Assembly: GCA_963835065.1 (NCBI GenBank)
Contig: CAWIEK010000053.1
Coordinates: 1 to 64,000, forward strand
Length of the DNA stretch: 64,000 nucleotides
Direction of reading: 5' to 3'
DNA from: an uncultured Chthonomonadaceae bacterium
Lineage (GTDB): Bacteria > Armatimonadota > Chthonomonadetes > Chthonomonadales > Chthonomonadaceae
The notes under the pieces are model-generated. The model was given only the letters and a program-made list of their open reading frames with translations, had not been told where the DNA came from and searched no databases. This document shows, piece after piece, positions 21,734-61,415 of the stretch (position 1 is the first letter of the stretch; the number at the start of each line of letters is the position of its first letter). The translations under genes were made by a program, and so were the position numbers.

Positions 21734-21876
21734 AACCACGGAGAACACGGAGGACACGGAGAGTGAAGAGGAAAATACTTACCACGGATGAAACGGATAA
21801 CGCGGATTAACACGGATAAAGAGACGCCTTATGATTTGATCCGCGCTTATCTGTTCCATCCGTGTCCTCCGTGGTT
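21734..21876. repeat. Nested palindromic element A (CACGGAGRA outer arms, CACGGAT-type inner arms)
   Basis: AACCACGGAGAACACGGAGGACACGG ... CGCGGAT ... ATCCGCG ... CCGTGTCCTCCGTGGTT. Confidence 0.85.
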
Positions 21877-22809
21877 CTATTCTTTTCCTCGCAGTGTGAA
21901 GTGGTCCAAAATCGTGCCGTTGGCGCGCAGGGCGGTGATTGTTACCTGCGCGCCGTTGACATCGCAGACGACGGCGTTGTTCACGCTTTCATAACGGTCA
22001 CCGGCAATCGCGCCTTTTTTCGGGTTGACCGGGTACAGGGGAGCGCCGCCGCCGCCCGTGACAAGGTACGTCACGCCATCACGCCGGGTGCGGTAATAGT
22101 TATGGTCATGGCCGTTGAACACAATGTCTACGCCGTAGCGGATGAACAGCGGACACAATTGCCGCCGGACTTCGCGGTCGCTGCCGTGCGAGCCGATGGA
22201 ATACGGCGGCACGTGGAAAAACACGAAAATGTGCGCGGGATGCGTTTGGCGCGTGTTCTCCAGATCGCCGCGCAGCCATTTGTACTGCGCGCTTCCCTCG
22301 GCATACGCGGTCGCCTCGTCTACGGCAAGGCAGATGAAATGGCAGTTGCCTTTGTCGAACGAGTAGTATAGTTTGTTGCCGGATGTGAAAGGCGTTGTGA
22401 CCCGCGCTTCATATCCCGGCCCGCCCAGATCGTGGTTGCCGCGCGTCGGGTAGAACGGCACGGACTTGCGCGCTTCGCCCGTGATGCTGTCATAGATTTG
22501 CCACAGGCTGCGATTGCTGCCGTCATGGACTAAATCGCCCGTTTGCAGAATAAACTCAGGCTTCTGCTTCAGCAGCAGCGCCAATACTTTGCGGTGCATC
22601 GCGTGTCCGTCCCGCGTATCGCCATACACGCCGAAATGCAGGCGCGGGGGCGTGTTTTCCTCACTCCCATCCGCTTGCAACGCATACGCCCGCTTGTCTG
22701 CCAACGGGCTGTCGGCGGCAAGCCGACTTTGCGCGCCCATGAGCAACAGCAGCAGTCCCGCGAACCATAAAAGCAAAGGAACGCGCGAATCTCTTCCAGC
22801 AAATCTCAC
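21877..22809 (-). CDS. Secreted metallophosphoesterase (calcineurin-like / purple acid phosphatase-like)
   Basis: YGDTR, TGDLV, GNHD, FHVPPY, NGHDHNY, TGGGG. Confidence 0.9.
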   Translation of the reverse strand: MRFAGRDSRVPLLLWFAGLLLLLMGAQSRLAADSPLADKRAYALQADGSEENTPPRLHFGVYGDTRDGHAMHRKVLALLLKQKPEFILQTGDLVHDGSNRSLWQIYDSITGEARKSVPFYPTRGNHDLGGPGYEARVTTPFTSGNKLYYSFDKGNCHFICLAVDEATAYAEGSAQYKWLRGDLENTRQTHPAHIFVFFHVPPYSIGSHGSDREVRRQLCPLFIRYGVDIVFNGHDHNYYRTRRDGVTYLVTGGGGAPLYPVNPKKGAIAGDRYESVNNAVVCDVNGAQVTITALRANGTILDHFTLRGKE

Positions 22810-22983
22810 CGTTTTCTCCCTTCGAGAACACCACGTATGCTATAGGGGCAGGATGTGAGCCGCGCTTGCGGCAACATTCTCGTGGCTGAGGCCGCAGGCT
22901 AAACGTGGAATGCGAACTTCTCCTGAAAGCGGCGCGTATGAAACAAGCAGCCGCCGCAGAGTTGTTTCAGGAGAATGTTTTCA

Positions 22984-24548
22984 TGCTAAACGAAGCCCCC
23001 GTCCGCGCCCCGCAATTGCCTGCCGACCCTGCCGCGTGGCTCAACACGGAGGGCAGAGCGCTGTCGTTGCCGGCCCTGCGCGGCTGCGTGGTTTTGCTTG
23101 ACTTCTGGACGTATGGCTGTATCAACTGCCTGCATGTCCTGCCTGACCTCAAGTATCTGGAATCTAAATACGCGGACAGGCCCTTTGTTGTTGTCGGCGT
23201 CCATTCCGGCAAGTTCGATAACGAGCGGCAGCGCGACAACATCCAAAGCGCCCTGCTGCGCCATGACATTCGCCACCCGGTTGTTTGCGATAACGATCAC
23301 CGCGTCTGGCAGGAGTACGATGTCCATGCCTGGCCGACATTGGGCGTCATTGACCCGGAAGGCTACTATCTTGGCAGCGTGTCCGGGGAAGGGCATCGGG
23401 ACGAACTGGATCAGATTATCGGGCAACTGCTGACCGGCCTTGCCGCCAAAACTCCAATAGGCAAGAACCTTCCCGGCCAAGTAGGTTCACATAACTTTAC
23501 CAGAGAACAATCCAAAGAACATTCCAAAGCCCCCCTCCCGGAACAAACGGTTTCTGCTCCTGCGTCCCTGCGGTTTCCCGGCAAAATCGTAGCGGACGGG
23601 ATCGGGCAGCGCTTGTTTGTTGCCGACAGCGGACACCATCAGATCATCGTTTGCAGTCTGGACGGCAGCCATGCGCGTTCCATCGGCAGAAGTGAAGCGG
23701 GATGGACGGACGGAAACTGGCAGGAAGCCCGCTTCAGCTTTCCGCAGGGAATGGCGTTGGTGGGGGATGCGCTGTACGTATGCGACTGCGACAATCATCT
23801 GCTGCGCCGCGTAGATTTGGCGCTTGAGACGGTGACAACGGTTGCCGGCACGGGCGCGCAAAGCCAGGCGCGAACGCCGGGAGGGCCGGGAACGACGACG
23901 CCCCTTTCGTCTCCGTGGGACGTGTGTTACCACCAATCACAGGAAGGGCTATTAACGCTGGCGCTTGCGGGCATTCACCAATTGTGGCGCTACGATTTGC
24001 GGACGGGGGAAGTTCTGCCGTATGCGGGCAATGGGCGCGAAGCCCGCATAGATGGGGCCTTGAGGGCCACCTCGTTCGCGCAGCCGAGTGGCCTTGCAAT
24101 GGAGGAACGCGCCCTGTACATCGCCGACAGCGAAAGCAGCAGCCTGCGCCGTATTCTCGTTTCTCCCGATACCGGCGCGGAAATCGTGGAAACCGCAACG
24201 GGCGGCGACTTGTATGCGTGGGGCGACGTGGATGGAACGGGTGACAGCGCGTGTTTGCAGCATCCGCTCGGCGTGTGCGCGTATCGCGGCGCGGTTTATA
24301 TTGCCGACACCTACAACCACAAAATCAAGGTTTTCGATCCCCTTGCGAACAGCCTGCGAACGCTGGCGGGAACGGGCAAGCCGGGACTGGCAAACGGCTT
24401 CGGCGACGCGGCGCAGTTTTGCGAACCGGGCGGATTGAGCGCGGCCAACGGTTTCCTTTATATCGCGGACACGAACAACCACTGCGTCCGCCTGCTCGAT
24501 CTGGACACAAACATCGTGTCCACGCTGGACATCTATTCCGAAGGTTAG
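22984..24548 (+). CDS. Thioredoxin-like + NHL-repeat protein (NHLRC2-like); start may be 22938
   Basis: LDFWTYGCINC, GVHSGKF, AWPT, SGEGH; multiple NHL repeats (LYIADTNNH, QHPLGV). Confidence 0.9.
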
Positions 24549-24651
24549 ACAAAAACATGTTCGATCTTTTTAGGAACAATTCTCAGACCGCTGAAACGTT
24601 ATATAACCAGCGCATGTCCTCCTTTTCATAGAAGTCCATTAAGAAATGATG

Positions 24652-24697
24652 GAGCCTGTATCAAAGTTCTCAGGAACTTCGATACAGGTTTCTTTTT
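24652..24697 (+). terminator. Rho-independent terminator
   Basis: GAGCCTGTATCAAAGTT-ctcagg-AACTTCGATACAGGTTTC-TTTTT. Confidence 0.75.
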
Positions 24698-24741
24698 GCC
24701 TGCCCTATTCTCCTTCCTTCTTGTCTCCTGCTTCGCTGCAA

Positions 24742-24796
24742 TTTAATCTAATCTTAATTTCCGCTTAATTTATCCTTAACCTTGCTCCGGCATACT
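24742..24796 (+). promoter_or_regulatory. Four YTTAAYYT boxes at 11-bp period (Pho-box/OmpR-family-like) followed by a candidate -10 CATACT
   Basis: TTTAATCT, CTTAATTT, CTTAATTT, CTTAACCT with TTAA at 24743, 24754, 24765, 24776; CATACT at 24791. Confidence 0.6.
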
Positions 24797-25051
24797 GAAG
24801 GCGTTCGTGAAAACAATTACTGACGCGCGAGTCGGAATGGAAGGGGCAGGGAACGAGCCGGAACTTTTTTCTTGCCCCGCAAAGCCTGTCCGCGATTTCT
24901 GCGGCCTTTCCCACCATTGGCACAACCTTGCGCGTCCTTCCTGCCAACACGCAGAGATTATCGCTTTCACACGCGACTCACGCAGGAATTTGCATGTTTG
25001 CTTGCCTGCCATTTTACGGTCTGTTGCAGGACACTCTCGAAAGGACGTTCC

Positions 25052-26008
25052 ATGCCACTTTCTTACCCAACGCCCAATGCCCAACACCCAACACCCAATA
25101 CAGGGAACAGGGAACAGGAAACAGGGAACAGAAGAAACTCAATCGAAAATCGAAAATCGAAAATCGAAAATCCCTCAGCCCTCAACCGGGCTTTCACCCT
25201 GATTGAACTGCTCGTAGTTATCGCCATCATCGCTATTCTTGCCGCTATTCTGTTCCCTGTTTTTGCCCAGGCGCGCGAATCGGCGCGGCGCACAAGCTGC
25301 CTGAGCAACATGAAGCAAATGAGCGTCTCGACCATGATGTACGTGCAGGATTTTGATGAGACATTCCCCATTGTTTACACCTCCCCGTGCAGCCACGCCG
25401 AGTACGTTCTGCTGTATCCCTACATGAAGAACCTCAACATCATGCAGTGCCCGGATGGGGGCACAACCGGCGGCTCGATTCCCGGCTGCGCCGTGACTGC
25501 CGGAGAAATCCCGGCGCAATCCGCCACCTTCCACACCCACTACGGCTACAACTGGGGTCCGCTGATTTATGCGGGCGGCGGGCTGCATGGGCCGGTGCAG
25601 AACGCGCCGCAGGGCGGCACGTTTCAGGACGGCAAATCTATCGCCGCGCTGGTCGCGCCCGCCGATGTGTTCGTGTATGGCGACAGCTACGATACCTATC
25701 GCCCGACAATGGGCATGGACTGGACGCTGGACTCCTACCCCGCTGCGACGGGAACGCAGGGCAGCATCCGGCACGGCGGCAAGTGGCAAATGGCGTTTGC
25801 CGACGGCCACGCCAAAATGGTGCAGTTCCGGGGCGGCGTGGTGGGAACCCACAAGTATGGCATTCCGCGCAAGCAGGAAGACTGGCCCAAATACTGCGCC
25901 AATCCCGACGAAATCATTGACCTCGGCCCCTCCTATGGACAGCCCAAGACCAGGTGCGGCGACATCGGCGCGTTGGTGAATTCCAAAATCACCTACTGGC
26001 CGGAATAA
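25052..26008 (+). CDS. Prepilin-type N-terminal cleavage/methylation protein (DUF1559-like, H-X9-DG)
   Basis: [31 protein letters not shown]...CLSNMKQ...[31 protein letters not shown] before ATG 25052. Confidence 0.92.
25066..25184 (+). repeat. Compound array of 17 in-register heptamers encoding the prepilin leader
   Basis: CCCAAYR x5, CAGRRRA x5, AACTCAA, TCGAAAA x4, KCCCTCA x2. Confidence 0.92.
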
Positions 26009-26076
26009 TACAATCTCGGAAGAACATAATCATAATAGACACGCGCTGTTCCAAAACTAACAGAAAGGTTTCCACG

Positions 26077-26334
26077 ATGACACTTCGTAAACACGCGCTC
26101 CTCGCGCTTTCCGCCTGCGCCCTCATGGGCGTTCTGCTGCTCCCCGGCTGCGGCGGCAAAGCCAATGACGAAACGCCCGCTCCCACCAAAGACGCCATGA
26201 AAGCCAGCCGCGAAGGGGGAGACGCGGGCACAACCGGCGCAACGACGACGCCCGCCGCGAATGGCGCTTCCACTCCGTCCGGCGGCGGTTCCCTCGCCAA
26301 CCCGCAGGCTCCGGGCGGCGGCAGCGGCAAGTAA
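26077..26334 (+). CDS. Small low-complexity lipoprotein
   Basis: MTLRKH + hydrophobic stretch + lipobox LPGC; AAAGG RBS. Confidence 0.8.
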   Translation: MTLRKHALLALSACALMGVLLLPGCGGKANDETPAPTKDAMKASREGGDAGTTGATTTPAANGASTPSGGGSLANPQAPGGGSGK

Positions 26335-26344
26335 CTGAAGCCGC

Positions 26345-26390
26345 GAAGCCGGTCTTTCCCAATGATGTGAAAAGATCGGCTTCTTCATGT
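26345..26390. terminator. Stem-loop, probable terminator between convergent genes
   Basis: GAAGCCGGTCTTT...AAAGATCGGCTTC-TTCATGTT; weak U-tract. Confidence 0.55.
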
Positions 26391-26516
26391 TCCAATTTAG
26401 AGACTATCCCAATTGGCGCGGCATTTGCGTCCGCAGGACGCTTGTACTTTCCTGCCGGGGATTTTCAATCCCCGGCCAAGCGGGATAGCTTCTAAGCAAA
26501 TTCGTCAAGCAGATTG

Positions 26517-27236: not shown

Positions 27237-27251
27237 GATAATTAATCCTTC

Positions 27252-27553
27252 GAACCACGGGGAACACGGGGAACACGGGGAGGAAAAGGGAATACGAGGA
27301 GGGGAACCGCGAAACACACGAACCAAACGAAAGAAAGACAAAAAACAGAGAAAATAGACAGGATTAACGGGATTTTCAGGATTAAACAGGATTACAAACA
27401 ACAAGGGCAGCCTGTCTCGTTCTGCTAAACTCCGGCAATGATCTGTGGACACTTCTTTTTGGCTTCTTTTCGTTTATTTCGTGTCTTTCGCGGTTCCTTG
27501 TCTCCTCTTCTCTCCCTATCTCCTCCCCGTGTCCCCCGTGTTCCCCGTGGTTC
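27252..27553. repeat. Nested palindromic element B
   Basis: Outer GAACCACGGGGAACACGGGG / CCCCGTGTTCCCCGTGGTTC; inner GGAACCGCGAAACACACGAA / TTCGTGTCTTTCGCGGTTCC; core GACAGGATTAACGGGATTTTCAGGATT. Confidence 0.9.
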
Positions 27554-28442: not shown

Positions 28443-28453
28443 GGTGTACTTCT

Positions 28454-28571
28454 AGGCATCAGGCATTAGGCATTAGGCATTAGGAACATGCCTTATAGAA
28501 GGTGGCTCATGCGGCTAGAAAAACTTGACCGGGAGTACCCCTAGTGCCTGATGCCTAATGCCTAATGCCTT
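28454..28571. repeat. Inverted pair of GGCATTA heptamer arrays between lspA and lgt
   Basis: AGGCATCAGGCATTAGGCATTAGGCATTAGG ... TGCCTGATGCCTAATGCCTAATGCCT; supplies the lspA stop (EEGIRH*). Confidence 0.88.
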
Positions 28572-29124
28572 CCTCACGCGACGTTCTTACGAAATGCAGC
28601 AGCAGCAGGATAATGCCAACCGTGATGGCGGAGTCTGCTACGTTGAAAATCGGCCAGTGAATGATGTTGACGTTAAAGAAATCTATGACGGAGCCGAAGC
28701 GCAGGCGATCCAGCAGATTGCCCAACGCGCCGCCCAACGCCAGCGCAAAGGCCGTGCCGACAAACAATTCGATCTGCTGCATCCGGTGATACGCGATCAG
28801 CAGAGCGACAATGGCGACGGCGGCAAACAGGATGAACAGCATACCGTTGTGCGGCATGACTCCCCACGCCCCGCCCTGATTATGCGCCAGCGTCAGCAGA
28901 AAAGCGTTGCCGAAAATGGGACGTTCGCCTCCCATCGGCGGCAGCGTCTTCATTACCCACATTTTGCTCAGTTGGTCGCTGACGAAAACGAGCGCGACAA
29001 TCAGGTAAAACATGGACGGGCGCAGGGCGCGTATAGGCGTATGGGCGGTTGACGCAGAGCCGGCAGTTTCCGCCGAAGGAACGGCATCCATCATAGTTAA
29101 ATCATCCGTCGAATTGGGTTGCAA
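28555..29124 (-). CDS. lspA: Lipoprotein signal peptidase II (start uncertain)
   Basis: DQLSK, NQGGAWG, GGALGNLLDR, VIDF, WPIFNVADSAI. Confidence 0.95.
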   Translation of the reverse strand: MQPNSTDDLTMMDAVPSAETAGSASTAHTPIRALRPSMFYLIVALVFVSDQLSKMWVMKTLPPMGGERPIFGNAFLLTLAHNQGGAWGVMPHNGMLFILFAAVAIVALLIAYHRMQQIELFVGTAFALALGGALGNLLDRLRFGSVIDFFNVNIIHWPIFNVADSAITVGIILLLLHFVRTSREEGIRH

Positions 29125-29144
29125 GGTCGTCGTATTCGGTTCTA

Positions 29145-29555: not shown

Positions 29556-29666
29556 AACCGCCTCCTCATGTTCAAAATTCTCAAACTCTTGTATTCCATT
29601 TGAAGTTCGTGTACCTACAGTATACATCATAGATTCATCCGGCACACGTCCCTGTAAGCCTGCCGT

Positions 29667-29810
29667 GTTGTGGCGACGCACTGAAGTGCTTCGCTGTATG
29701 GCGTTCCGCCGACTGTCCTTCGGACAGAATACTCTTATAACTGAATAGCGTGTCCGAAGGACACTGGGCCGCAGGCCCTACAGCGAAGCACTTCAGTGCG
29801 TCGCCACAAC
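29667..29810. repeat. REP/REPIN-like palindrome: perfect 32-bp inverted repeat enclosing an inverted 13-bp cUUCGg hairpin pair
   Basis: GTTGTGGCGACGCACTGAAGTGCTTCGCTGTA (29667-29698) and its exact reverse complement (29779-29810); TGTCCTTCGGACA (29714-26) / TGTCCGAAGGACA (29751-63). Confidence 0.9.
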
Positions 29811-29819
29811 GCGGGAGCG

Positions 29820-32800
29820 TTATTTGCTGTCACGTTCCGCAACGGCGCGGGAACAGCGTTCGCACAGATCGGGATAAGCGGGGTTCCCGCCCACATCGCG
29901 TTTATCAAGCCAGCAGCGAGCGCACTTTTGGCCGACAGCAGTGTCTATCACGATACTATCTTGTTGATTTTGCTGCCCTTCGCTGATTGAAACATCCGAA
30001 ACGATAAATAGGGTCTTCATCATCTCTTCATACGTTCTTAGGAGCGCATAACGTTCGGGAGATAGCGTAATAGCTACTTGCGCTTCTAAAACTTTGCCAA
30101 TCTTACCAGATTGGCGCGCTACCTCCAACCCCTTCATTACTGCCTCGCGCAAAGCGAGTATTGGTTCCCACCGCGTCAGAAGATCAGTATCTACATTCGA
30201 GGCCGTCGGGAAATCCGCCAGATGAACGCTTTCCGCTTTGCCGGGCGTTTTCAGGTAATCCCACACTTCTTCGGTCGTGTGTACCAATATCGGGGCAAGC
30301 AGACGCGCCAGGGTTTCGGCAACGGTGTGCATGACCGTTTGCGCCGAGCGCCGTTCCCGCCAGTTTGCGCCGCTTGCGTACAGGCGATCCTTGATGACGT
30401 CGAGATAGAAACTGGACAGTTCCGTCGCGCAGAAGTTGAGAACCATCTGGTAGACGCGCTGAAACTCGTATTCTTCATACGCCGCCGTCGCGTTCTGCAC
30501 CAACCCGCCCAACTGCGCCAGCATCCAGCGATCCAGTTCCTCCATGTCCCCGACTTCTACCGTATCCGTCGCCGGGTTGAAGTCGTACAGGTTGTTGAGC
30601 AGGAAGCGGAACGTGTTGCGGACGCGCCGGTACATTTCGCCCACCTGTTTGAGCAGGTTTTCGCCGCACCGCGTATCCTCCATGAAACTTTGCGACGCCA
30701 CCCACCAGCGTACCACGTCCGCGCCGCTGTTTTTGATGACTTCCAGCGGGTTGACGCCGTTGCCCTTGCTTTTGCTGAACGCTTCGCCGTTTTCGTCCAG
30801 CGTCCAGCCGTTCGTGACCACGCTGCGATAGGGGGCGCGGCCTTTCGTGCCAACGCCGATCATCAGGCTGGAATTGAACCAACCCCGGTGCTGGTCGCCG
30901 CCTTCCAAATACAGGTCGGCGGGCCATTCCAGATCGGGCCAATGCGCCGTATTTTCCAAAACAGCGCGATTCGTGGAACCGGAATCGAACCACACGTCCA
31001 GCACATCGGTTTCCTTGCGCAGTTTGTCCACGCCCGAACCGCAGTGCGGACACGTAAAGCCGAGGGGCAGTATTTCGGACGCAGGCCGGGAGTACCAAAC
31101 ATCCGAGCCTTCCCGCGCCGTCATGTCCACCACCGCTTGTACGCTTTCTTTGGTCAGCACATGCTCGCCGCAATGGTCGCAGTAAAACGCCGGGATGCCT
31201 ACGCCCCACGCCCGCTGCCGCGACACGCACCAGTCGGGCCGATTGCCCACCATACTCGTGATCCGGTTCACGCTTTCACGCGGATACCACGCCACGTCGG
31301 CGATAGCGTTGAGCGCCTTCTGACGGAAAGGGAGTAGATGATAGTTGATGAGTGATGAGTTGATAGTTCGCTATCTTCTGTTCCCTGTTCCCTGTTCCCT
31401 GTTCCCTCACTTATCCCTTTTCCCTTATCCCTTATCCCTTCCTCATGGTCTATATTCATAAACCACTGCACGGTGGCGCGGAAGATGAGCGGGCTGTGGC
31501 AGCGCCAGCAGTGCGGGTAGGAGTGTTCGAACTTACTGGCTTGCAGCAGGTTGCCCGACTCGCGCAGGGCGTTGATGATAACCGGGTTGGCTTCCGCGTC
31601 CTGTCCTTTTTTGTCGCCCCAGGTTGTGACGCGCAGGCCCTCGAACTTGGTATCGCCGTATTCGCCCGCCTGCGCCGTGTAGCGTCCCGCCGCGTCAACC
31701 GGAGTCAGCACTTCCAGGCCGTACTTCAAGCCCGTCTCGAAGTCTTCCTTGCCATGCCCCGGCGCGGTATGCACCAGTCCCGTACCCGCATCCATCGTGA
31801 CGTAATCGGCCAGAACGACAGGCGACGTGCGATGAAACAGGGGATGCCGAAACACAAGCCCTTGCAGTCCCGCGCCGTTCAAGGTTTTCACCACTTCGTA
31901 GTTGTCTATTCCCGCCGCTTTCATCACCGAATCCACGAGCGGCACAGCAACCAGGTAAGCGTCCGTCTCGCCCTCGCTCCCTTTTGCCAGCACAACCGCA
32001 TACTCCGCGTCCGGGTGCGCCGCTATCGCCAGGTTCGCCGGTATCGTCCAGGGCGTCGTCGTCCAGATAACGGCGTAACAGTTGAGGGGATTGCCGATTG
32101 CCGATTGATCCTCTTCCGTATTCCCTTCCATGTTGAATACTCCCATCGGGTCATGGTGAAGCGGGAAGCGCACGTAGATGCTGTTGGACGTGTGATTTTC
32201 GTACTCCACTTCCGCGTCGGCGAGGGCGGTTTCGCAGGTCGCGCACCAGAACACGGGTTTGAGGCCGCGATAGATAAAGCCCTGCAAGGCCAGTTCGCCG
32301 AACACTTCAACGATTTTAGCCTCGAAGTCCTTGCTCATCGTTAAATACGGGATCGTCCCACTGCCCCCGTATGCCCAGCCGCTTGAACTGTTCGCGCTGC
32401 GTGTCCACCCACTTTGCCGCGTACTCACGACACGCCTGCCGCAGTTCCACGCGCCCCACCGCCTGCTTTTCCTCGCGGAATTTACGCGATACAGCGTTTT
32501 CGATGGGCATACCATGATTGTCCCAGCCCGGCACGTAGGGCGACGAATAGCCCTGCATCGTTCGGAAGCGGGTCACGATGTCTTTGGCGACTTTGTTGAG
32601 CGCATGACCCAGGTGGATGTCGCCGTTGCTGTAGGGCGGGCCGTCGTGCAGGATGAATTTGCCTTTGGGCGCGTGTTTGGCGACGCTTTTGCGGTACACG
32701 TCCAGGCTGTCCCAACGCGCCTGCACATCCGGCTCTTTGGCGGGCAGATTGCCCCGCTGCGGAAACGCGCCGGGGTCTTTGTCATTGAGCGTGATGTTGA

Positions 32801-32867: not shown

Positions 32868-32889
32868 TGTAAAAGTCCTCAATACGGTT

Positions 32890-33221
32890 TTCACCACCCG
32901 CTCCGCTAGAGGCACAGAGGCACAGAGGGGAAGAAAAGAAGAAAAGAAGAAGAGAAGAAAAGGAGATAGGGAACCGCGAAACACACGAAATAAACGAAAA
33001 AAGACGAAAAGAACACAAATAAATTTACAGATACCACCGCATATTTAGAACAAACAGGCTTACCTTCTCGGTTTTTAATCCTGCAAATCCCGTTAATCCT
33101 GTCTATTTCTTTTGTTCTTTTTTCGTCTTGGTTCGTGTGTTTCGCGGTTCCCCAGTTTCTCTCTTTCTCGTATTGGCTTTTCCTCTGTGTCTCTGTGCCT
33201 CTAGCCGTAGGCGGGTGGTTC
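32890..33221. repeat. Nested palindromic element C in the ileS leader
   Basis: Outer ACCACCCGC..GCTAGAGGCACAGAGGCACAGAG / CTCTGTGTCTCTGTGCCTCTAGC..GCGGGTGGT; inner GGGAACCGCGAAACACACGAA / TTCGTGTGTTTCGCGGTTCCC; core AATCCTGCAAATCCCGTTAATCCTGTC. Confidence 0.9.
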
Positions 33222-33237
33222 ATTTATAAAATTGGGC

Positions 33238-33429
33238 GCAAAAAACGCGCCGCCGCGATGGTCACAAAGACGTGCGGACAGGGCGCGGATGGACGGCGAC
33301 GCCGGAGCGGAACGAGCGTAAAACTCGTCAGGCTCCCGACGCCGCCTGCGTAATCACGCTAATCGTCAGCCGCGAGACGCAAAAACGCCGCAATCCATAA
33401 AGGGCGCGTATCAAGGTAACGATCTGCAT
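33238..33429 (-). promoter_or_regulatory. Candidate leader-peptide attenuator upstream of ileS (33-aa ORF 33429..33328, alternative hairpins, terminator with U6)
   Basis: MQIVTLIRALYGLRRFCVSRLTISVITQAASGA* (4 Ile); hairpin GGCGGCGTCGGGAGC/GCTCCGGCGTCGCC; CGCGCC..CCGC/GCGG..GGCGCG-TTTTTT. Confidence 0.55.
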
Positions 33430-33441
33430 GGGAGGAGTTCC

Positions 33442-35232: not shown

Positions 35233-35243
35233 GGTGTCCTTCC

Positions 35244-37245: not shown

Positions 37246-40078
37246 TCAGGAATTCGGTTCGCCAAACTCCGCGTCAAGATACTCTTGTACGAGGTTGTCG
37301 AAACCGATGGACAGCCACGCAACGCGGGCGGCGGCGACATGCGCCTGCTGTGTGGCGGCATCGGGCGCGACTTGCGCCAGGCGGTAGCGCGTGACGCCGA
37401 TGGAATACGGTTCCGGTATTTGCGCGTACAGGCGTAACGCCTCCTCATAGCGCAGACGAGCCACATCGTTGTTTGCGCGCGAGCGCGCAATGTCGCCTAA
37501 ACTCTGGATGCAATTCGCCTGCCCCAACACATCGCCGACATTCTCATACAAGGGTTGCGCCTGTTCGTACAAGCGGCGGGCTTGTTCATGCTCGGAACGC
37601 GCCAGCGCAATGTCGCCTAAACTCTGGATACAATTCGCCTGCCCCAACACAGAGCCGACATTCTCATACAAGGGTTGCGCTTGTTCGTACAAGCGGCGGG
37701 CTTGTTCGTGTTCGGAACGCGCCAGCGCAATGTCGCCTAAACTCTGGATGCAGTTCGCCTGCCCCAACACAGAGCCGACATTCTCATACAAGGGTTGCGC
37801 TTGCTCGTACAAGCGGCGGGCTTGTTCGTGTTCGGAACGCGCCAGCGCAATGTCGCCTAAACTCTGGATGCAGTTCGCCTGCCCCAACACAGAGCCGACA
37901 TTCTCATACAAGGGTTGCGCCTGTTCGTACAAGCGGCGGGCTTGTTCGTGTTCGGAACGCGCCAGCGCAATGTCGCCTAAACTCTGGATGCAGTTCGCCT
38001 GCCCCAACACATCGCCGACCTGTACAAAGAGCGGCTGCGCCTGTTCGTACAAGCGGCGGGCTTGTTCGTGTTCGGAACGGCGCAGCGCAATGTCGCCTAA
38101 ACTACTGGATGCAGTTCGCCTGCCCCAACACATCGCCGACGCGCAACGCTGCGCGTTGCGCGGATTCCTGCAATTGAATTGCTTCCGCGCCGTAGATGCT
38201 CAGGTAGAGGAAATCGCGCAGGGAAGAGGCCAGAGGCATCAGCGCCTCCCAGTAGTCATTCGCTTGCTCCGCGAATTCAGCGGCGCGGAGGGCGTTGCGC
38301 CATTCAGCCCGCAGCACGGCATATTGTTCCGGGAGGTTGATGTTTCCATTTGCCTGTATCAACTGGACGTAGTGGGCAACGTACCGCTGCTGTATCGCCT
38401 CGGCATCCTGTGGCATTTCGGCGCGTAACCGCCGCAGGGCATACTCGCGGAACACGGGCAGCAGGCGATAGCGCACGATGTCGTCGGCTTCGCGGCTTTC
38501 CAGCAGGTGTATGTGGTTCCACTTGACCAGCAGCGCGTCGGCAACGCCGCAAATCGCTTCCGCCGCGTCCGGGGCGAAGTCGTAGGCGAAGATTCCCAGA
38601 CGCGGAAACAGCGCCTGCTGCGCGTCGGGGAGGGTCTGCACCGACCAGTGGATGCAGGCTTCCATGCTGACGTGGCGCAGACTGTCGGCGCGGGCATAGC
38701 CGTATTCCTCGCGCGTTTTTTGCCAATCCAGCAGGCTGTCGCTCAGGCCGTCGGCGATCTGTTTGAGCGTCTTCATCTGGCGCAGCGCGGCGGTCAACTC
38801 GATGCCGAGCGGAAACCCTGCCGTATGTTCCAGAATACGGCGCAGCGAGTTCACGTCGCTGATGTCCTTTACGGGCCGGTGCTGCTCCACGCGCGCCCGG
38901 AACAACTTGCAGCCGTCCAATGCCTCCATGTTTTCCCCGTCATGCGGCACGGGCAGGCCGGGAATCTCGTATGTTTCGCTGAACGGTTCCAGCATGATTT
39001 TGTCGCGGCTGGTGACGAGCCACCGCATGGCGTCCACGTTCTGAATCAGGTCGCCGAGCCAGCGCAGCGTAGCGGGATTGACCATGCTTTCGCCGTTGTC
39101 CAGAAACATCAGCGTGGACGCGCGGGTTTGCAGATGGTTTTCCAGCCGGGTTTTGCCGTTCGCGTCGGAGGCAAGCGGCTCCTCCATAACGGGTTTCGGG
39201 GCCTCAATGGCGCGGGCAATCGCTCCGGCCAGCAATTCGGGCGTCACCTTGTCGGGCGCGTTGCCGAACTCCCGGTCGAGCGACACGCCATGAATGTTGC
39301 CCCGGAAGTCGCCGCACACGGCCAGAATGGTTTGGATGGCAAGCCGGGTTTTACCGATGCCGCCCGGTCCGTGCAGCGTCAGGAGGGGTTTTTTGCCCCG
39401 CAGCCACGTTACCACGTCCTCAATCTGCCGGTCACGTCCGATGAATTTATTGCCTTCGCGCCGCATCCACGCGGGCAGCCAGCGCGTACCGGGTTCGCGC
39501 GGTTCCTGCCCCGCATACCACAGCAGTTCGTGAACCGTTTCGGGCTGCTGATGGTAGCTCTTGATATAGCGGTTGGGCCAGGGATAAAAGTCGTAGACCT
39601 GCCGACTGCCCGCGCGGTCATGGGCGGACGCCGACACGAGTATCTGCCCGCCCTTGCCCAAGTCTTCCACGCGCTTGGCGTAATTGATGTCCTCGCCATG
39701 ATACAGCCCGGCGGCGTCCGGCTTCATGTCTTTTTCCGCGCGATGCAGGCCGATGCGTATCTTGATTGTCCATGTCACGCCGTTTCGCGTACAGGTAATG
39801 GGCGCTTGCGTCAGACGTTCCTGCATGGCGCGGGCGCAGGCCAGCGCCTCGTCCACATGCTGAAACACGATCATCAGGCTGTCGCCGGCAGGCGTGCCGT
39901 TTTCGTAGCCGTTGTGTTCCGGCGCGTTCAGGCACTCGCGGAGAACGTCAAAATGCGGGTCGCGCAGTTCGCCGTGATAGAGAGCGTCGCCAAGCGCCTT
40001 GTTCATCAGCGACGAGTCCTCAACATCGGTAAACAAGATGGTGACGCTGCCATGCGGCAGTGGGGCGGGCGGTGTCAT
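37246..40078 (-). CDS. Class III nucleotide cyclase + STAND/NB-ARC NTPase + TPR repeat protein; +1 indel at ~38104
   Basis: LFTDVEDSS, AGDSLM, RIGLH, INYAKRV, GGQILVS; GPGGIGKTRLA, FLDNGE, LVTSR, GFPLGIEL; 40-aa TPR-like repeats. Confidence 0.9.
37487..38140 (-). repeat. 120-bp near-identical tandem repeat (~5.5 units) encoding TPR-like units
   Basis: GCAATGTCGCCTAAACTCTGGAT recurs at 37487, 37607, 37727, 37847, 37967 and 38087 (last has an extra A). Confidence 0.95.
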
Positions 40079-41437: not shown

Positions 41438-41568
41438 AAGGATGAAGGATGAAGGATGAAGGATGAAAACTCCTTTTCCTTCATGTTTTGTGCGAGCGCG
41501 TAAGTCTTGAATGACGTGTGGAGAAGCAGGCATTGCCTTCATCCTTCATCCTTCATCCTTCATCCTTT
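41438..41568. repeat. Inverted pair of AAGGATG / CATCCTT heptamer arrays between mreB and mreC
   Basis: AAGGATG x4 ... CCTTCAT x4, ending directly at the mreC RBS. Confidence 0.9.
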
Positions 41569-46626: not shown

Positions 46627-47097
46627 ATGTCGAACACGATGCAGGAATTCCTTGCCACCGCCACGCAAAAACAGGCGGAGAACTTGATTGCCGCGTACCT
46701 GCGCCTGCCCGAAGACAAGCGCGGCTGGAAGCCCGACGAGAAAGCCCGCTCCGCGTCCAACCAGTTCGCGGAGTGCGCGCTGCTCGCAGGCTACACCGCC
46801 GCGCTGCTCGAAACGCGCCAGATGCCGGCGGACGACAACATGATGGCAACGTTTTTCCGCGATATGGCCGCAACTGAAGCCCTGCCCTGGGATGAGCTTC
46901 ACGCGCGCCTGCTGGAAAACACGCAGAAAGTCGCCGCCGCCATTCGCGCCATGCCCGATGACGCGCTTGCCATCGAAATCCACATGCCCTGGGGCGTACA
47001 AACACTGGGGGCAATTCTGGCGTATCCCAACTGGAACATGACGTACCACGAAGGCCAGATCAATTACATCGCTTCGATGCTGGGCTGTCTGCCATAA
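46627..47097 (+). CDS. DinB-family protein
   Basis: WKP...RS, terminal YHEGQINYI; AGGAG RBS. Confidence 0.8.
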   Translation: MSNTMQEFLATATQKQAENLIAAYLRLPEDKRGWKPDEKARSASNQFAECALLAGYTAALLETRQMPADDNMMATFFRDMAATEALPWDELHARLLENTQKVAAAIRAMPDDALAIEIHMPWGVQTLGAILAYPNWNMTYHEGQINYIASMLGCLP

Positions 47098-47102
47098 ATT
47101 GG

Positions 47103-47222
47103 GCGTTCAGGTGTTCAGGTGTTCGGGTATTCAGGTGTTGAACTCATAGCTTTGCTGCGATGAACCAACCGTCTGTACTTTTGTATTTCCTGAATACCGA
47201 ACACCTGAACACCTGAATACCG
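47103..47222. repeat. Inverted pair of octamer arrays (GGTGTTCA / TGAACACC)
   Basis: GCGTTCAGGTGTTCAGGTGTTCGGGTATTCAGGTGTTG ... CCTGAATACCGAACACCTGAACACCTGAATACC. Confidence 0.88.
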
Positions 47223-47264
47223 ATTCAATGCCAACATCACAAGGAAGTGATTCAGGAAAATTAT

Positions 47265-52300: not shown

Positions 52301-52425
52301 ATTCGGCTACGCGCGTTTCGAGTACCTGTACCTGTAGCGACGCCGACGAGATACCAGCCAACCTCCGCAAATTGTGCGATGCGGCGGCAGAAATTCTTCA
52401 CGGACAAACCCATCCATGCCTGTTA
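49396..52425 (+). CDS. Type III-like restriction subunit (SF2 helicase + PD-(D/E)xK); indels at ~50845-50870, ~51472 and ~52336; 3' end approximate
   Basis: LPMGAGKT, IDEVHH, GFSGTP, GKEGWDC, LQTSCRCLR; YTPDFL...IIETKG; adjacent methylase. Confidence 0.85.
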
Positions 52426-54998: not shown

Positions 54999-55010
54999 AG
55001 AGGTTAGCGC

Positions 55011-56411: not shown

Positions 56412-56456
56412 CACTGCTAATTTAATAATTTTTGCTTCTTTTGGAATGATTACACT

Positions 56457-57638: not shown

Positions 57639-57646
57639 GAAACGGG

Positions 57647-57684
57647 GTTCAGGTGTTCAGGTGTTCGGGTATTCAGGTGTTGGG
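57647..57684. repeat. Octamer array GGTGTTCA after the thiolase stop
   Basis: GGTTCAGGTGTTCAGGTGTTCGGGTATTCAGGTGTTGG. Confidence 0.85.
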
Positions 57685-57752
57685 ACACCTAGCGTTTTCA
57701 GCAGGGGTGGTGAACGCCGTTTGTAAGTTCTGCTGTGAAAGGAAGTGTAACT

Positions 57753-57986
57753 ATGTCGGCAGCAACGTTTGATTTTGAAGCGCGTTATCCGCATATCGCC
57801 GCCTGGATTGAATTGGAAGGCTCCATTGAAATCGGACACGAACCCAATACGGACAGCTACGCTCGCGCGCTGGATGAGGGCGGCATGGTTTGGTCGGGCG
57901 GGCATCAGAATGGTTCGCTCGATGACTGGCTGCAAGCGCTGGACGCGGGACTTGCAGACTTTATGGAGGCGGAGGGGATAGGCTAA
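57753..57986 (+). CDS. Small acidic hypothetical protein
   Basis: 77-aa ORF with AAGGA RBS; YPHIAAWI..GSIEIG...RALDEGGMVW; 3 nt from the next gene. Confidence 0.7.
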   Translation: MSAATFDFEARYPHIAAWIELEGSIEIGHEPNTDSYARALDEGGMVWSGGHQNGSLDDWLQALDAGLADFMEAEGIG

Positions 57987-57989
57987 ACG

Positions 57990-58706
57990 ATGCGCTTCCT
58001 GCAAAATCTGTTCAAATCTAAAGAAGAAGGCGATCTATCCGGTGTACCCGATTACCGCGTTGGCGACTCGGTTGTTGTCAAACAAGGCGTGATGTGTCCC
58101 GACAAGCCCGAACTCTCCCTCGCCGGCTGGCAGGGACGCATTACCGAACTGTACCTGGAAGAAGGCAATGTCTTCATTGATTGGGATACCCCAACGCTGC
58201 GGGCCATGCCGGACGATTACATCCGCGAGTGCGAGATAGAAGGGTTGGGATGGGACAGCATGGTATTGGGCGCAGACGAGGTACTCCCCGCCCAACCGCG
58301 CGACAATGAACAGGAACGGGCAAAAGTCAGTGAAGAAATCGAGAAACGTCACCAATGGGATTATCTTGCCGACGAAAATCCCGGTATCCGCGAGGTTCTC
58401 GGCGGCCTGGAAGACGGCGATATTATGTCGTGCCTGGCAGCGTGGGAGGAGCATCTCAGCGCCGCGCTGAAATTCCCCTTCGAGGCTAAAGTGGCGGAAC
58501 AAATCACCCGCTACCCGGTAGGCGTCGGCGAAAAAGTTCTATTGACCGGCCTTGAAGATGCAGATGATCTATACGGCCTTTTGGTGAATGTCCGGTTTGG
58601 CCGGAAGCAATATACGTTACCCCTGTGCGACCTTGAGGCAACAGATGAGAACTCTCCCAACTACCAGCCGCTCAGAGATTACGTCGTCTGGTTCGCCAAC
58701 CGTTAG
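57990..58706 (+). CDS. Protein with C-terminal CcbP-like (calcium-binding) domain
   Basis: WEEHL...LKFPFEA...YGLL...PLCDLE...NYQPLRDYVVWF; very acidic. Confidence 0.7.
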   Translation: MRFLQNLFKSKEEGDLSGVPDYRVGDSVVVKQGVMCPDKPELSLAGWQGRITELYLEEGNVFIDWDTPTLRAMPDDYIRECEIEGLGWDSMVLGADEVLPAQPRDNEQERAKVSEEIEKRHQWDYLADENPGIREVLGGLEDGDIMSCLAAWEEHLSAALKFPFEAKVAEQITRYPVGVGEKVLLTGLEDADDLYGLLVNVRFGRKQYTLPLCDLEATDENSPNYQPLRDYVVWFANR

Positions 58707-60205
58707 GTCTTGTTGCTTGCTCTTTTCTTAACTGCGTTTGTAAACCGCGTTTGCAGCAATGCCCAACCGCACAGCGCGACGGACACGAACAGGCACAACT
58801 GCCCGAAGCGCCAGCCGCCGCGCACAAAGATTGTCTGGCCTTGTATCCGCCCGACGGTAACATCAAGCCGCGCCGGACTGGTCGTGGCAACGCGGGCTGT
58901 TTCCTGGCCGTTGGGCGCGGCGACCGACGTTCCGCCCGCCACATCTGCCCGCGCCAGCCACTTCCCGCACTCCGCCGCCCGCATCTGGAACATCAGGCGG
59001 TGCTGAACGCGCTGCATCTCGCCCCATTCCGGCGGATCGTCGTTGGGAACCAGAAACACCTCGGCTCCATCCGCCGCCAATCGCCGCGCCACATCCGGGT
59101 AGTCCATGTCAAAGCAAATGGCGACGCCGATTTTACCGGGCGGGGTTGCGATAGCGGTTGACTGTGTGCCTGCCACGCCATCTCGTATAAAATGCACGGG
59201 ATGGTTTTTGACGTGCCGCCCCACTTCCCTGCCGGTCGGGTCGAGCAGATACGCGGTGTTGCGGAAGCCTGCGGGAGAATCGAGGTCGAACTGATCCGTC
59301 GCGCCAAACAGCAGATAGGCGGATTGCTCCCGCGCCACTTGCTGCAAACCCTTCCACACTTTGGCGTCACGGGTCGGGTCGCGGACAAAGCTGTATTCCG
59401 GCCACACGATCACATCGGGCTTGTGTGGAGCATCGGAATTGGAACGCGACAGCCGGTAGAAACTGTCTTCATCTTCGGAATTGGCCTGCACGAGTCGAAC
59501 ATGCAGCGGGCGCTCCGGCGCGGGAGTCGAAGCGGGAACCACAAACAGCAGCAGCCAGCCACAATACAGGGCAAGCGGTTTCCAAACCAGTTTTTCGCGG
59601 CTGTCTCTTCCGCCAGTAAATCCCTCTGCCAGCAATGCGCCGAGCAGAACGATGCCGAACGTCAGCCCATAGCACCCGAACCACGCCGCGCATTTCGCCA
59701 AAACGGGAACATTGACTACGCCGTAGCCCAATCCCATCCAGCCGAAATTCAGCGCGAACGGTTCGGAGCGATAATATTCAATGCCTGTCCACAGCACGGG
59801 CGCGAGCAGCCAACCTGGAAAACGGGGCAGGCGCTCACGCAGCCAGACATACGTAACGGCAAAAATGGTAGGAAATACGGCGAGCAACGCGCATAAACTG
59901 ACAACCGCCATGCCGAACAGCCGGGAAAACCAGTACAAATCCGCGCAAAACCACGTCAGCCCGAACACAAACCCAAGATAAAACGCCTGCCGCCGCGTCA
60001 CGCCATGCAGCAGGAACAAAAACGCCGCCACGCACAAAGGCAGGAGAAAAGCCCATCCAACCGGAGGAAAACAAGCCGCCAGCAAGCCGCCCACGCCGCA
60101 AGCCAGAAGCAGTCGCCACCGGAACGCCAATGCCGACGGCACAGGCGGAATGGCAGGCTCAGGCGATGTTTTCGCCTGCAACGGCGCGTTTGCCTGAATG
60201 TCCAT
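58703..60205 (-). CDS. lnt: Apolipoprotein N-acyltransferase-like (nitrilase fold)
   Basis: N-terminal TM bundle; VIVWPE, NTAYL, K, AICFD, RAAE. Confidence 0.8.
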   Translation of the reverse strand: MDIQANAPLQAKTSPEPAIPPVPSALAFRWRLLLACGVGGLLAACFPPVGWAFLLPLCVAAFLFLLHGVTRRQAFYLGFVFGLTWFCADLYWFSRLFGMAVVSLCALLAVFPTIFAVTYVWLRERLPRFPGWLLAPVLWTGIEYYRSEPFALNFGWMGLGYGVVNVPVLAKCAAWFGCYGLTFGIVLLGALLAEGFTGGRDSREKLVWKPLALYCGWLLLFVVPASTPAPERPLHVRLVQANSEDEDSFYRLSRSNSDAPHKPDVIVWPEYSFVRDPTRDAKVWKGLQQVAREQSAYLLFGATDQFDLDSPAGFRNTAYLLDPTGREVGRHVKNHPVHFIRDGVAGTQSTAIATPPGKIGVAICFDMDYPDVARRLAADGAEVFLVPNDDPPEWGEMQRVQHRLMFQMRAAECGKWLARADVAGGTSVAAPNGQETARVATTSPARLDVTVGRIQGQTIFVRGGWRFGQLCLFVSVALCGWALLQTRFTNAVKKRASNKT

Positions 60206-60217
60206 GTTCCTCTTCCT

Positions 60218-61120
60218 TCACTGACATTGGCGCAGGGAACGGTTCAGTTTGGATGCCAGAAAGCGCGTCGCCACTCCCACTTGTTCGGCATCAACGCCCG
60301 TTTCAATGCCCATGCCGCGCAGCAATCCAAGCAAATCTTCGGTTGCCAGATTGCCCGCCGCGCCGGGAGCAAACGGACAGCCGCCCACGCCGCCCGCCGC
60401 CGAGTCAAAATTGGCAACGCCATATTGCAATGCGGTTTGTACGTTTTCCAGCGCCATTCCGCGCGTGTCGTGGAAATGGTAGGCGGTTTGCGGCAGGGGC
60501 AGGACAGGGCGCAATGCTTCGGTCAAATCCGCCACTTGATCGGGGGTGGCGTGGCCGATGGTATCGCCAAGCGAAATCTCCGCAACGCCCATTGCCAGCA
60601 GTTCCGCAACAATGGGCGATACCTGCGCAGGCTGAATAACGCCCTCAAACGGACAAACGAACGCGGTGGAAACATACGCGCGCACCCACAAACCCTTTGC
60701 CTGCGCAAGGGGCATTAGAGCGCGAAAGTTGTCAAGCGATCCGGCAATCGTCGTGCCGATGTTGCGTTGCGTAAACGTTTCACTGGCCGCCGTAAACAGC
60801 GCAATCGCCTTCACGCCGGCATCGAGCGCGCGTTCCAATCCTTTCGCATTAGGAACAAGGGCCGAATAGCGCACATCGGCGCGGGGCGCAAGCCCGGCAA
60901 AAACTTCACTCGCATCCGCAAGCTGCGGCACGCGCGCCGGATTGACAAACGACGAAACTTCAATATCCGCAAACCCCGCTTCCGCAAGCATTTCAATAAA
61001 CTGAACTTTATCCTCTGTAGAAAGAATGACTGCCTCGTTTTGCAGCCCATCGCGCGGTCCAACCTCGACCACGCGCGCTTTTGTGGGAAGCGCCGCCCCA
61101 AATACCGACAACTCACCCAT
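60218..61120 (-). CDS. Hydroxymethylglutaryl-CoA lyase
   Basis: EVGPRDGLQNE, SFVNP, SLGDTIG, HFHDTRG, GGCPFAPGAAGNLATED. Confidence 0.95.
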   Translation of the reverse strand: MGELSVFGAALPTKARVVEVGPRDGLQNEAVILSTEDKVQFIEMLAEAGFADIEVSSFVNPARVPQLADASEVFAGLAPRADVRYSALVPNAKGLERALDAGVKAIALFTAASETFTQRNIGTTIAGSLDNFRALMPLAQAKGLWVRAYVSTAFVCPFEGVIQPAQVSPIVAELLAMGVAEISLGDTIGHATPDQVADLTEALRPVLPLPQTAYHFHDTRGMALENVQTALQYGVANFDSAAGGVGGCPFAPGAAGNLATEDLLGLLRGMGIETGVDAEQVGVATRFLASKLNRSLRQCQ

Positions 61121-61304
61121 TTCGGCCTCTTTCTTATAGAGCAGTCCCTCACACCTTGTATAATTGCGTCTTGTCCGGTATATACCATCTAAATTCTTTA
61201 CCGGATACGCAGGACTGCGGCCAATTGTCCTGCGGACACCACATTGTGCCATGTTTAAGCGGTTTGTCTATTACATCCTGCGCCAACCTCTATATTCTTT
61301 TGCA

Positions 61305-61415
61305 TCTTTTCGTTTCTTTCGTTTCTTTCGCGGTTCCTAATCTCTTCTTTTCTCCTTTTCTTCTTTTCTTTTTTTCTCTGTGCCCCCTCTGTGTCTCTGT
61401 GCCTCTGTGGTGGAA
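61305..61415. repeat. Half copy (D) of the nested palindromic element
   Basis: TTTCGTTTCTTTCGTTTCTTTCGCGGTTCC ... CTCTGTGTCTCTGTGCCTCTGTGGT; no matching left arms seen. Confidence 0.8.

What the first reader, a model, noticed from the sequence alone, without database searches (positions are those of the whole stretch)
21734..61415. Nested palindromic elements with interchangeable outer arms
Seen: four related intergenic elements (A 21734-21876, B 27252-27553, C 32890-33221, half-element D 61305-61415). B and C share, in opposite orientation, an ~80-nt inner module (GGAACCGCGAAACACACGAACCAA...GAAATAGACAGGATTAACGGGATTTKCAGGATTAAA) and its inverted partner. Their outer arms differ: 9-mer CACGGGGAA in B, 8-mer CACAGAGG in C and D. 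A has B-like outer arms with a different inner layer. Outer ends share ACCAC/GTGGT; A, B and D abut or overlap stop codons; purine and pyrimidine tracts separate layers. Inference: a non-autonomous element family built by successive nesting or arm swapping, unlike standard MITEs (no fixed TIR, no obvious target duplication).
Basis: partly seen in the sequence, partly recalled or inferred. Interest (0 to 1): 0.72.

Follow-up and report, generated by a model that had tools for sequence, protein, structure and literature searches.

The report
Swappable-layer hairpins from nuclease gene cassettes
The four nested hairpins belong to about 460 such sites in this bacterial genome; they carry the same mirror-image arms that flank a small unstudied nuclease-like gene (GxxExxY), their layers differ between related genomes at the same gene junctions, and they are likely selfish DNA whose contents are swapped in place by cutting and copying.

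Summary
A-D are 4 of 459 arm clusters (927 arms, nine types; reversed-genome control 33). 209 are closed palindromes in 59 layer combinations. Layers are interchangeable but ordered: P8/H8/G9 outside, R9 middle, D9/K9/W9 inside. At 33 junctions occupied in both this genome and a congener, only 9 share an architecture; in 8 the shell stays and the core differs. B is a C-type element whose outer arms were replaced. Whole elements and cores occur as near-copies at unrelated loci. There is no target duplication and no RNA-strand bias. Best reading: empty derivatives of GxxExxY cassettes, exchanged in place by recombinational repair of a cut hairpin. The cutting is inferred, not shown. It works like REPIN/RAYT and NTS/Ssn but belongs to neither. 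The G9 arm was published as a Geobacter 'regulator site'. This scan noted the arm-GxxExxY link before on other genomes; I found no paper describing it.

The parts
21735..21875 (.). Element A: G9 arms (CACGGAG 9-mers) around a W9 (CACGGAT) layer, between convergent DUF72 and metallophosphoesterase genes; right end abuts a TAG
   Evidence: congener G002 has R9> P8> <D9 <R9 at this junction
27254..27551 (.). Element B: G9 shell, R9 pair, one-sided D9; lies between the lgt stop and the peptidase C26 start
   Evidence: G002 has a degenerate R9 pair inside purine/pyrimidine tracts without G9 or D9
27279..27299 (+). H8-type linker tract next to B's left G9 arm; trace of an outer-arm swap (ends approximate)
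   Evidence: tract next to 34 of 97 H8 arms and 1 of 142 G9 arms, which is B
27303..27386 (+). Inner module of B (R9 arm plus D9 arm) shared with C in opposite orientation
   Evidence: 72 of 85 columns identical
32893..33219 (.). Element C: H8 shell, R9 pair, one-sided D9; sits in the ileS leader, about 25 nt upstream of the start codon
   Evidence: site empty in G002, degenerate H8 element in G001
33074..33151 (-). Inner module of C (R9 plus D9)
61308..61411 (-). Half-element D: P8 arm, purine tract, R9 arm, starting 5 nt after a TAA; no partner arms (left end approximate)
   Evidence: an S9 half-arm at the projected G002 junction

Best explanation
A-D are gene-less, layered palindromes built from the same tandem-repeat arms that flank GxxExxY genes, and their layers are likely exchanged in place: the GxxExxY protein, a predicted PD-(D/E)xK nuclease, would cut a hairpin extruded by an element, and the break would be repaired by copying another element through shared arms or purine tracts. 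Shown: arms flank the genes; arm class follows protein clade; junctions keep an element while its interior, one arm, both arms or the whole element differ between congeners; whole elements and cores occur as near-copies at unrelated loci; half-elements can be deletion relics of cassettes. Inferred: (1) the nuclease acts in trans on hairpin or cruciform DNA; (2) repair is templated by another copy, a homing-like cassette exchange that leaves no target duplication and would also spread the gene; (3) template switching makes the two outer arms match; (4) hairpin collapse gives empty shells and halves like D; (5) new sites are seeded now and then just after stop codons. My odds: empty derivatives of GxxExxY cassettes about 0.9; in-place exchange about 0.8; the nuclease as the driver about 0.55.
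For: All 3 GxxExxY genes in G000 are flanked by H8|Q9, G9|G9 and nested K9 arms. 82 of 110 loci from many phyla have inverted arms above all 50 shuffles. Arm class needs 11 changes on the protein tree against 21.6 shuffled, 0 of 200 as low. D74, E84 and K86 are invariant in 68 sequences, Q98 and Y102 are at least 90% conserved; model pLDDT 92.5; top fold matches are PD-(D/E)xK proteins (Cas4 SSO0001 E 6e-4; Z 7.4). dN/dS is 0.09 for one orthologous pair. Of 631 orthologous junctions, 33 have arms in both genomes; 9 are identical, 10 keep the outer type with a different inside (8 of these differ by a paired R9 core), 5 share a type, 9 share none. One GxxExxY gene stays in place while its left arm changes from Q9 to H8. 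The 10-nt H8 insert appears on both arms at once at two sites, and G9 replaces Q9 at the same position at another. Near-copies: whole H8 element, 205 nt at 94%, ends at -1/0; whole Q9 element, 158 nt at 97.5%; R9 core, 189 nt at 95%, in P8 and G9 shells. Shell type is only weakly clustered on the core tree, 10 changes against 12.1, 9 of 200 as low. A G002 S9 cassette corresponds to a half-arm with gene remnants in G000. 10 of 25 gene-positive and 1 of 17 gene-negative genomes of the family have 10 or more exact arms.
Against: No cleavage, excision or intermediate was observed, and no clean pre-insertion target was found. R9 is the commonest arm (222), yet no gene with R9 arms was found in G000 (92% complete); K9 has a resident gene but is paired in only 5 of 57 clusters. 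One gene-negative genome (G031, 93% complete) has 21 R9 arms, and 15 of 25 gene-positive genomes have few of the three motifs tested. None of 62 viral loci with a P8 arm has the gene within 700 nt; this fits action in trans but does not support it. Junctions also switch between unrelated hairpin families with no shared arms, which homology-based exchange does not explain. Arm matching within an element beats shuffles for G9 and P8 only, not H8 or Q9, and R9 arms match less than shuffled. The direct-orientation control reached the same score in 31 of 110 loci. Fold Z-scores are under 8 and do not give a substrate. Direction of change is unrooted at most sites.
Confidence: 0.5

Rival explanations
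1. REPIN-like transposition with successive nesting: GxxExxY excises or copies whole hairpins and inserts them into existing hairpin loops (terminators or older elements), so inner layers are later arrivals.
For: Whole-element near-copies end at the arm ends. In 8 orthologous sites the shell is shared and only G000 has the R9 core. Elements are enriched at convergent junctions (6.8% of such junctions, against 1.5% of divergent ones). Mirrored flanks of 6 nt or more occur in 4 of 33 G9 and 3 of 35 P8 elements. Empty P8 elements occur in viral contigs, and some sites are filled in one genome of three.
Against: One-sided arm replacement around a resident gene and B's swapped shell are not insertions. 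The fixed layer order (R9 encloses D9 34 times, never the reverse) is not expected from free nesting. Several 'empty' shells in G002 keep remnants of the R9 end, so they are deletions. No transposase fold was found.
Confidence: 0.25
2. Host processes alone: the arms are unstable dispersed repeats reshuffled by RecA gene conversion, template switching and palindrome deletion, and GxxExxY is a passenger or binder that does not drive the changes.
For: Template switching is proposed to perfect inverted repeats in bacteria (PMC5941160, abstract). 7-mer hairpins at fixed junctions also swap their unit on both arms. R9 is abundant without a known cognate gene. Arms also flank unrelated cargo genes.
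Against: It does not explain why arm class tracks nuclease clade (kin share labels, so this is not proof of co-evolution), the conserved catalytic triad, or arm-rich genomes mostly carrying the gene.
Confidence: 0.15
3. The elements are host-selected regulatory parts (mRNA stems for processing or stability, or protein-binding sites, as proposed for the Geobacter class 2 sites), kept at particular junctions while their sequence drifts.
For: Junction occupancy is shared between congeners far above chance (33 of 49 G000 sites, odds ratio 78). Median distance from the upstream stop is 11 nt, and 79 of 131 lie within 15 nt. Folding is very stable.
Against: No transcribed-strand bias: G-U-type mismatches 79 against A-C-type 72, and the sense strand folds better in 71 of 130, P 0.09. 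The C site is empty in G002 with the ileS leader intact. No Rfam match. Shared occupancy may simply be shared ancestry.
Confidence: 0.1

Closest known systems
REPIN / RAYT (Bertels and Rainey 2011, PMC3116915, passages read)
   Same: Inverted doublets that form hairpins in extragenic space, many empty copies with a few cognate genes, singlets as decayed doublets; two GxxExxY genes are kept in place between congeners.
   Different: Arms are runs of 8-9-nt units; layers of different classes nest in a fixed order; the partner is PF13366 with a predicted PD-(D/E)xK fold, not a tyrosine transposase; content changes in place.
NTS/SRM repeats with Ssn nucleases (Chenal et al. 2025, PMC11893778, abstract and Discussion read)
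   Same: A small single-domain nuclease gene flanked by its own dispersed hairpin repeats, in many families.
   Different: Ssn is GIY-YIG and SRMs are 20-50-nt inverted repeats; here the enzyme is PD-(D/E)xK-type, elements are about 100-440 nt and layered, and no activity has been measured.
Geobacter metallireducens 'class 2 predicted global regulator binding sites' (Aklujkar et al. 2009, PMC2700814, passages and supplement S8 read)
   Same: Paired sites on opposite strands with three tandem TCTCCGTS(Y) units; essentially the G9 arm of A and B.
   Different: Interpreted there as regulator sites; the passages and supplement I read make no link to GxxExxY, nesting or exchange.
Heptamer repeat families: GGGAATC in Xanthomonas and Nostoc (PMC4692102, abstract) and TAACTGA in Beggiatoaceae (PMC4679880, passages)
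   Same: Dispersed short tandem units at co-directional junctions, scarce between divergent genes in the first case; origin unexplained.
   Different: These resemble the 7-mer sister family, which in G000 flanks four-helix-bundle genes, not the 8/9-mer arms of A-D.
MITEs (recalled, no call)
   Same: Non-autonomous, terminal inverted repeats, copies at unrelated loci.
   Different: No target duplication, no transposase gene between such ends among the genes listed, and interchangeable interiors.
Homing endonuclease elements (recalled, no call)
   Same: Proposed logic: a nuclease cuts an empty site and repair copies the gene-bearing donor.
   Different: Targets would be hundreds of dispersed self-made hairpins rather than one allelic site; untested.

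Membership tests
MITE / IS-derived non-autonomous element | Terminal inverted repeats | tested here: met
   187 of 209 closed elements have the same arm type at both ends
MITE / IS-derived non-autonomous element | Target-site duplication | tested here: not met
   2-nt 17 (21.8 shuffled), 3-nt 8 (4.7), 4-nt 2 (1.5), 5-9-nt 0, of 187
MITE / IS-derived non-autonomous element | Ends shared with an autonomous transposase-bearing element | tested here: inconclusive
   Genes between open arm pairs under 2.5 kb apart in G000 are GxxExxY, a cyclase-like gene, toxin-antitoxin and host genes (judged by eye from the sequences); longer elements were not searched
REPIN / RAYT | Inverted doublet forming a hairpin in extragenic space | tested here: met
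   209 closed elements, none inside a called gene; z -15 to -17 for B and C
REPIN / RAYT | Associated gene is a RAYT tyrosine transposase | tested here: not met
   The flanked gene is PF13366 / TIGR04256 with PD-(D/E)xK-type fold matches; G000 was not searched for a RAYT elsewhere
REPIN / RAYT | Excision intermediates in reads | not testable with these tools
   Only assembled contigs of other strains were available
NTS/SRM - Ssn | Repeat-gene-repeat architecture with a small nuclease | tested here: met
   3 of 3 genes in G000, 82 of 110 overall
NTS/SRM - Ssn | GIY-YIG nuclease | tested here: not met
   Family hit is GxxExxY only; D74/E84/K86 invariant
NTS/SRM - Ssn | Site-specific ssDNA cleavage at the repeat | not testable with these tools
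   Needs biochemistry
PD-(D/E)xK nuclease (for GxxExxY) | Fold and catalytic D...E-x-K triad | tested here: met
   listed in the superfamily with function 'Unknown' (PMC3424549, passage)
Known structured RNA family | Rfam match | tested here: not met
   0 matches at gathering score in the window and in the three GxxExxY loci
Homing endonuclease element | Nuclease cuts empty sites and repair copies the donor | not testable with these tools
   Only the evolutionary outcome (replacement in place, no duplication) was seen

The most novel reading that the evidence does not exclude
A widespread, undescribed class of selfish DNA: tiny PD-(D/E)xK nucleases, each clade with its own tandem-repeat arm class, that home among hundreds of self-made hairpin landing pads at gene junctions by cut-and-copy cassette exchange. 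Competing clades overwrite one another's pads and leave layered chimeras such as B and C, and the pads can capture foreign genes. The nucleases would be hairpin-specific cutters with a readable repeat code.
Probability: 0.35. Interest if true: 0.85.

Novelty: new variant of a known kind. Interest (0 to 1): 0.64.

Why it matters
GxxExxY (PF13366 / TIGR04256) occurs across prokaryotes with function listed as unknown, and its arms have been annotated as regulator sites. This finding ties the two together and gives each protein clade a candidate substrate, so the function can be tested directly with a 130-residue protein and short hairpins. If exchange in place is enzyme-driven, it is a way for selfish DNA to persist without a transposase and to rewrite the spacing next to stop codons and ribosome-binding sites at hundreds of junctions. 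The parallel Ssn family has already yielded sequence-specific ssDNA cutters.

Tried and rejected
Rfam: nothing. RNA data: no RNA holder listed; contigs of three related DNA runs cover the flanks but do not bridge the elements, so an inversion hinted at C (joint 32890-33219) could not be judged. Metagenome scan with Lgt gave no close strain (best 60% identity). Search for a clean target site in viral contigs: three queries gave only themselves or distant hits; the fourth gave three prophages at 94-96% identity in which a different GC-rich hairpin fills the junction, so no naive target. Target duplication and RNA-strand bias were tested and not found. A general three-unit arm pattern was too strict, with hits in 4 of 42 genomes. 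dN/dS for the second gene pair failed because synonymous sites were saturated (75% nucleotide, 88% amino-acid identity). No solved relative by sequence. Homodimer prediction gave no verdict. The PHROGs check of phage flanking genes was not completed. Literature searches for a description of the system found none: GxxExxY (2 papers listed, one passage read and unrelated); PDDEXK_3/PF13366/TIGR04256; four-helix/intervening-sequence terms; nested-repeat terms. The library lacks most subscription journals. Free nesting in any order was rejected on the enclosure table. Programmed frameshifting in ileS was set aside because 224 of 849 aligned genes show frame-breaking indels between these assemblies.
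Full report
Observation. A-D are as described. I named arm types by their unit: P8 (CACAGAG), H8 (P8 with a GC insert), G9 (CACGGRG), R9 (CGCGAAA), K9 (CGCAAAG), Q9 (CACCAAG), D9 (CAGGATT), W9 (CACGGAT), S9 (CGCGAAT); the names are mine. A is G9> W9> <G9, B is G9> R9> D9> <R9 <G9, C is H8> R9> <D9 <R9 <H8, D is the half <R9 <P8. B and C share the R9-D9 module at 72 of 85 columns and fold far better than shuffles. D does not fold.

The family. The genome (G000, 8.0 Mb, 92% complete) holds 927 arms in 459 clusters; the reversed genome gives 33. 209 clusters are closed and 250 one-sided; the closed ones show 59 architectures, and 187 have matching outermost types. The order is a hierarchy: H8, P8 and G9 enclose R9 (19, 12, 15 times); R9 encloses D9, K9, G9 and W9 (34, 22, 9, 8); D9 and W9 never enclose R9. 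The 68 paired R9 cores sit in no shell (21), H8 (18), G9 (12), P8 (8) or one-sided or mixed shells (9). Using my own gene caller (which misses some genes), closed elements fill 6.8% of convergent, 2.7% of co-directional and 1.5% of divergent junctions, a median 11 nt after the upstream stop. There is no clear target duplication and no bias towards the transcribed strand, which points to a DNA-level rather than an RNA-level structure.

The gene-bearing form. G000 has three GxxExxY genes, all between these arms. Of 110 scorable loci (6 more skipped for short flanks or fragments) from GTDB genomes and this family, 82 have inverted arms above all 50 shuffles; 31 also score in direct orientation, probably from repeated arms. 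On a tree of the 82 proteins, arm class needs 11 changes against 21.6 shuffled. The sample is biased to one clade by the search pattern, the labels are my regular expressions, and kin share labels, so this shows clustering, not proven co-evolution. The genes with D9, W9-like, S9 and R9-like arms fall outside the clade of the G9/P8/Q9/K9 genes, so B and C combine arms of three clades. The protein model (pLDDT 92.5) matches PD-(D/E)xK nucleases, best Cas4 SSO0001, with Hjc resolvases lower (Z under 8). D74, E84 and K86 are invariant in 68 sequences. Two genes sit at the same locus in G000 and G002, one pair with dN/dS 0.09. Within the family, 10 of 25 gene-positive and 1 of 17 gene-negative genomes have 10 or more exact copies of one of three arm motifs (P 0.016, kin not independent).

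What changes at a site. I compared G000 with 2.07 Mb of the roughly 7.5-Mb congener G002. Of 631 orthologous junctions, 33 have arms in both, 16 only in G000, 15 only in G002 (four pairs of rows are duplicated segments). Of the 33, 9 are identical, 10 keep the outer type with another interior (8 of them differ by a paired R9 core present only in G000), 5 share a type and 9 share none. At two sites H8 and P8 replace each other on both arms; at one, G9 and Q9 occupy the same position. One GxxExxY gene has Q9|Q9 arms in G002 and H8|Q9 in G000. An S9 cassette of G002 is a half-arm with gene remnants in G000, which shows one origin for halves like D. Several G002 'empty' shells keep a scrap of R9, so cores are also lost by collapse. 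In the window: A's junction holds other layers in G002; B's holds a degenerate R9 pair; C's is empty in G002 and holds a decayed H8 element in the more distant G001; D's projected junction holds an S9 half. Some junctions are filled in only one of three genomes (output partly cut), so sites are gained or lost as well. Both assemblies carry many indel errors, which affects single bases but not layer content.

Copying within the genome. Of 73 near-identical pairs (75 nt or more, 94% or more), 24 reached far into the flanks and were set aside. The rest include whole elements whose identity stops at or near the arm ends, an R9 core shared by a P8 and a G9 shell, and many tracts that end inside arms or linkers. 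On a tree of 23 R9-D9 cores, shell type needs 10 changes against 12.1 shuffled. B's core groups (support 98) with eight H8 and two P8 elements, C among them, and B is the only one of 142 G9 arms with the H8 linker. B is therefore most simply a C-type element with replaced outer arms. Left and right arms match better than shuffled pairs for G9 and P8, not for H8 or Q9, and R9 pairs are fixed asymmetric variants. P8 arms occur at 62 viral loci, 35 distinct ones as closed empty elements, none with GxxExxY within 700 nt.

Mechanism. The pattern (junction kept, content replaced at any layer, no duplication, tracts ending in shared sequence) is what cutting of a hairpin followed by repair from another copy would leave, with template switching (PMC5941160, abstract) matching the outer arms and collapse removing cores. 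The resident nuclease is the obvious cutter, but that step is inference. Abundant R9 without a known cognate gene, mostly unpaired K9 with one, and swaps between unrelated hairpin families are not explained. Insertion into hairpin loops is the main rival and may be how new sites arise.

Known systems. It works like REPIN/RAYT (PMC3116915, passages) and NTS/Ssn (PMC11893778, abstract and Discussion) but fails the enzyme test for both and the duplication test for MITEs. The G9 arm is in print as Geobacter 'class 2 regulator sites' (PMC2700814, passages and supplement S8; its other supplements were not read and may list neighbouring genes). PF13366 is listed as function unknown with multiple transfers (PMC3424549, passages). 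Five searches found no description of the arm-gene system. I had the GxxExxY link before consulting earlier scan notes, eight of which, on other genomes, describe the same kind of element. They gave me the Geobacter, Ssn, REPIN and Xanthomonas/Nostoc papers as leads.

Verdict. Real, ordered and dynamic; a new variant of the repeat-plus-cognate-nuclease kind, with a testable and possibly new mode of spread. Interest 0.64.

Noticed in passing
window 33328-33429 (-) and about 33240-33310: A 33-codon leader ORF with a conserved Ile-rich patch (ISVIT, IIVIT, SIVIM in G000, G002, G001) followed by a GC hairpin and T-run upstream of ileS; likely a ribosome-controlled attenuator. Element C lies between it and the ileS start.
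   Followed up: partly
window about 31340-31445 (-), inside ileS: 7-mer repeat arms inside the ileS coding sequence; in frame in G001, out of frame in G000 and G002. ileS has a second frame break near 32345. Probably assembly errors.
   Followed up: partly
window 9759-9833, 10506-10613, 19125-19155, 28455-28575, 41438-41567, 47090-47233 and others: A sister family of 7/8-mer hairpins; all three four-helix-bundle (PF05635) genes of G000 are flanked by such arms. Orthologous junctions keep a hairpin but change its unit on both arms.
   Followed up: partly
window 29655-29822: A GC-rich hairpin of a different family after the ileS stop; a contig of run X2 skips it.
   Followed up: no
G000:C9:133485-134952 and G000:C59:31861-33376: G9 arms around a 450-residue membrane/cyclase-like gene, and P8 arms around toxin-antitoxin-like genes (labels by eye): possible cargo capture.
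   Followed up: no
G000:C2 near 195150, C49 near 600800, C53 near 362500: A separate ~150-nt structured repeat lies next to or inside several arm clusters; it may be the family in earlier notes e1-8417203 and e1-9895131, not checked.
   Followed up: no
L432 against L433-L435 (prophages, 94-96% protein identity): One carries a P8 element and three carry an unrelated GC-rich hairpin at the same junction; the replaced stretch includes both gene ends.
   Followed up: partly
L042/L043 (G001:C2 about 2993800-2995409): A GxxExxY gene in two pieces about 1.3 kb apart, apparently split by an insertion.
   Followed up: no
window 1-6100 and 37300-38140: Repeat-rich coding region with a 2.46-kb duplication (YD/RHS-like by eye), and a 120-nt tandem coding repeat.
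   Followed up: no
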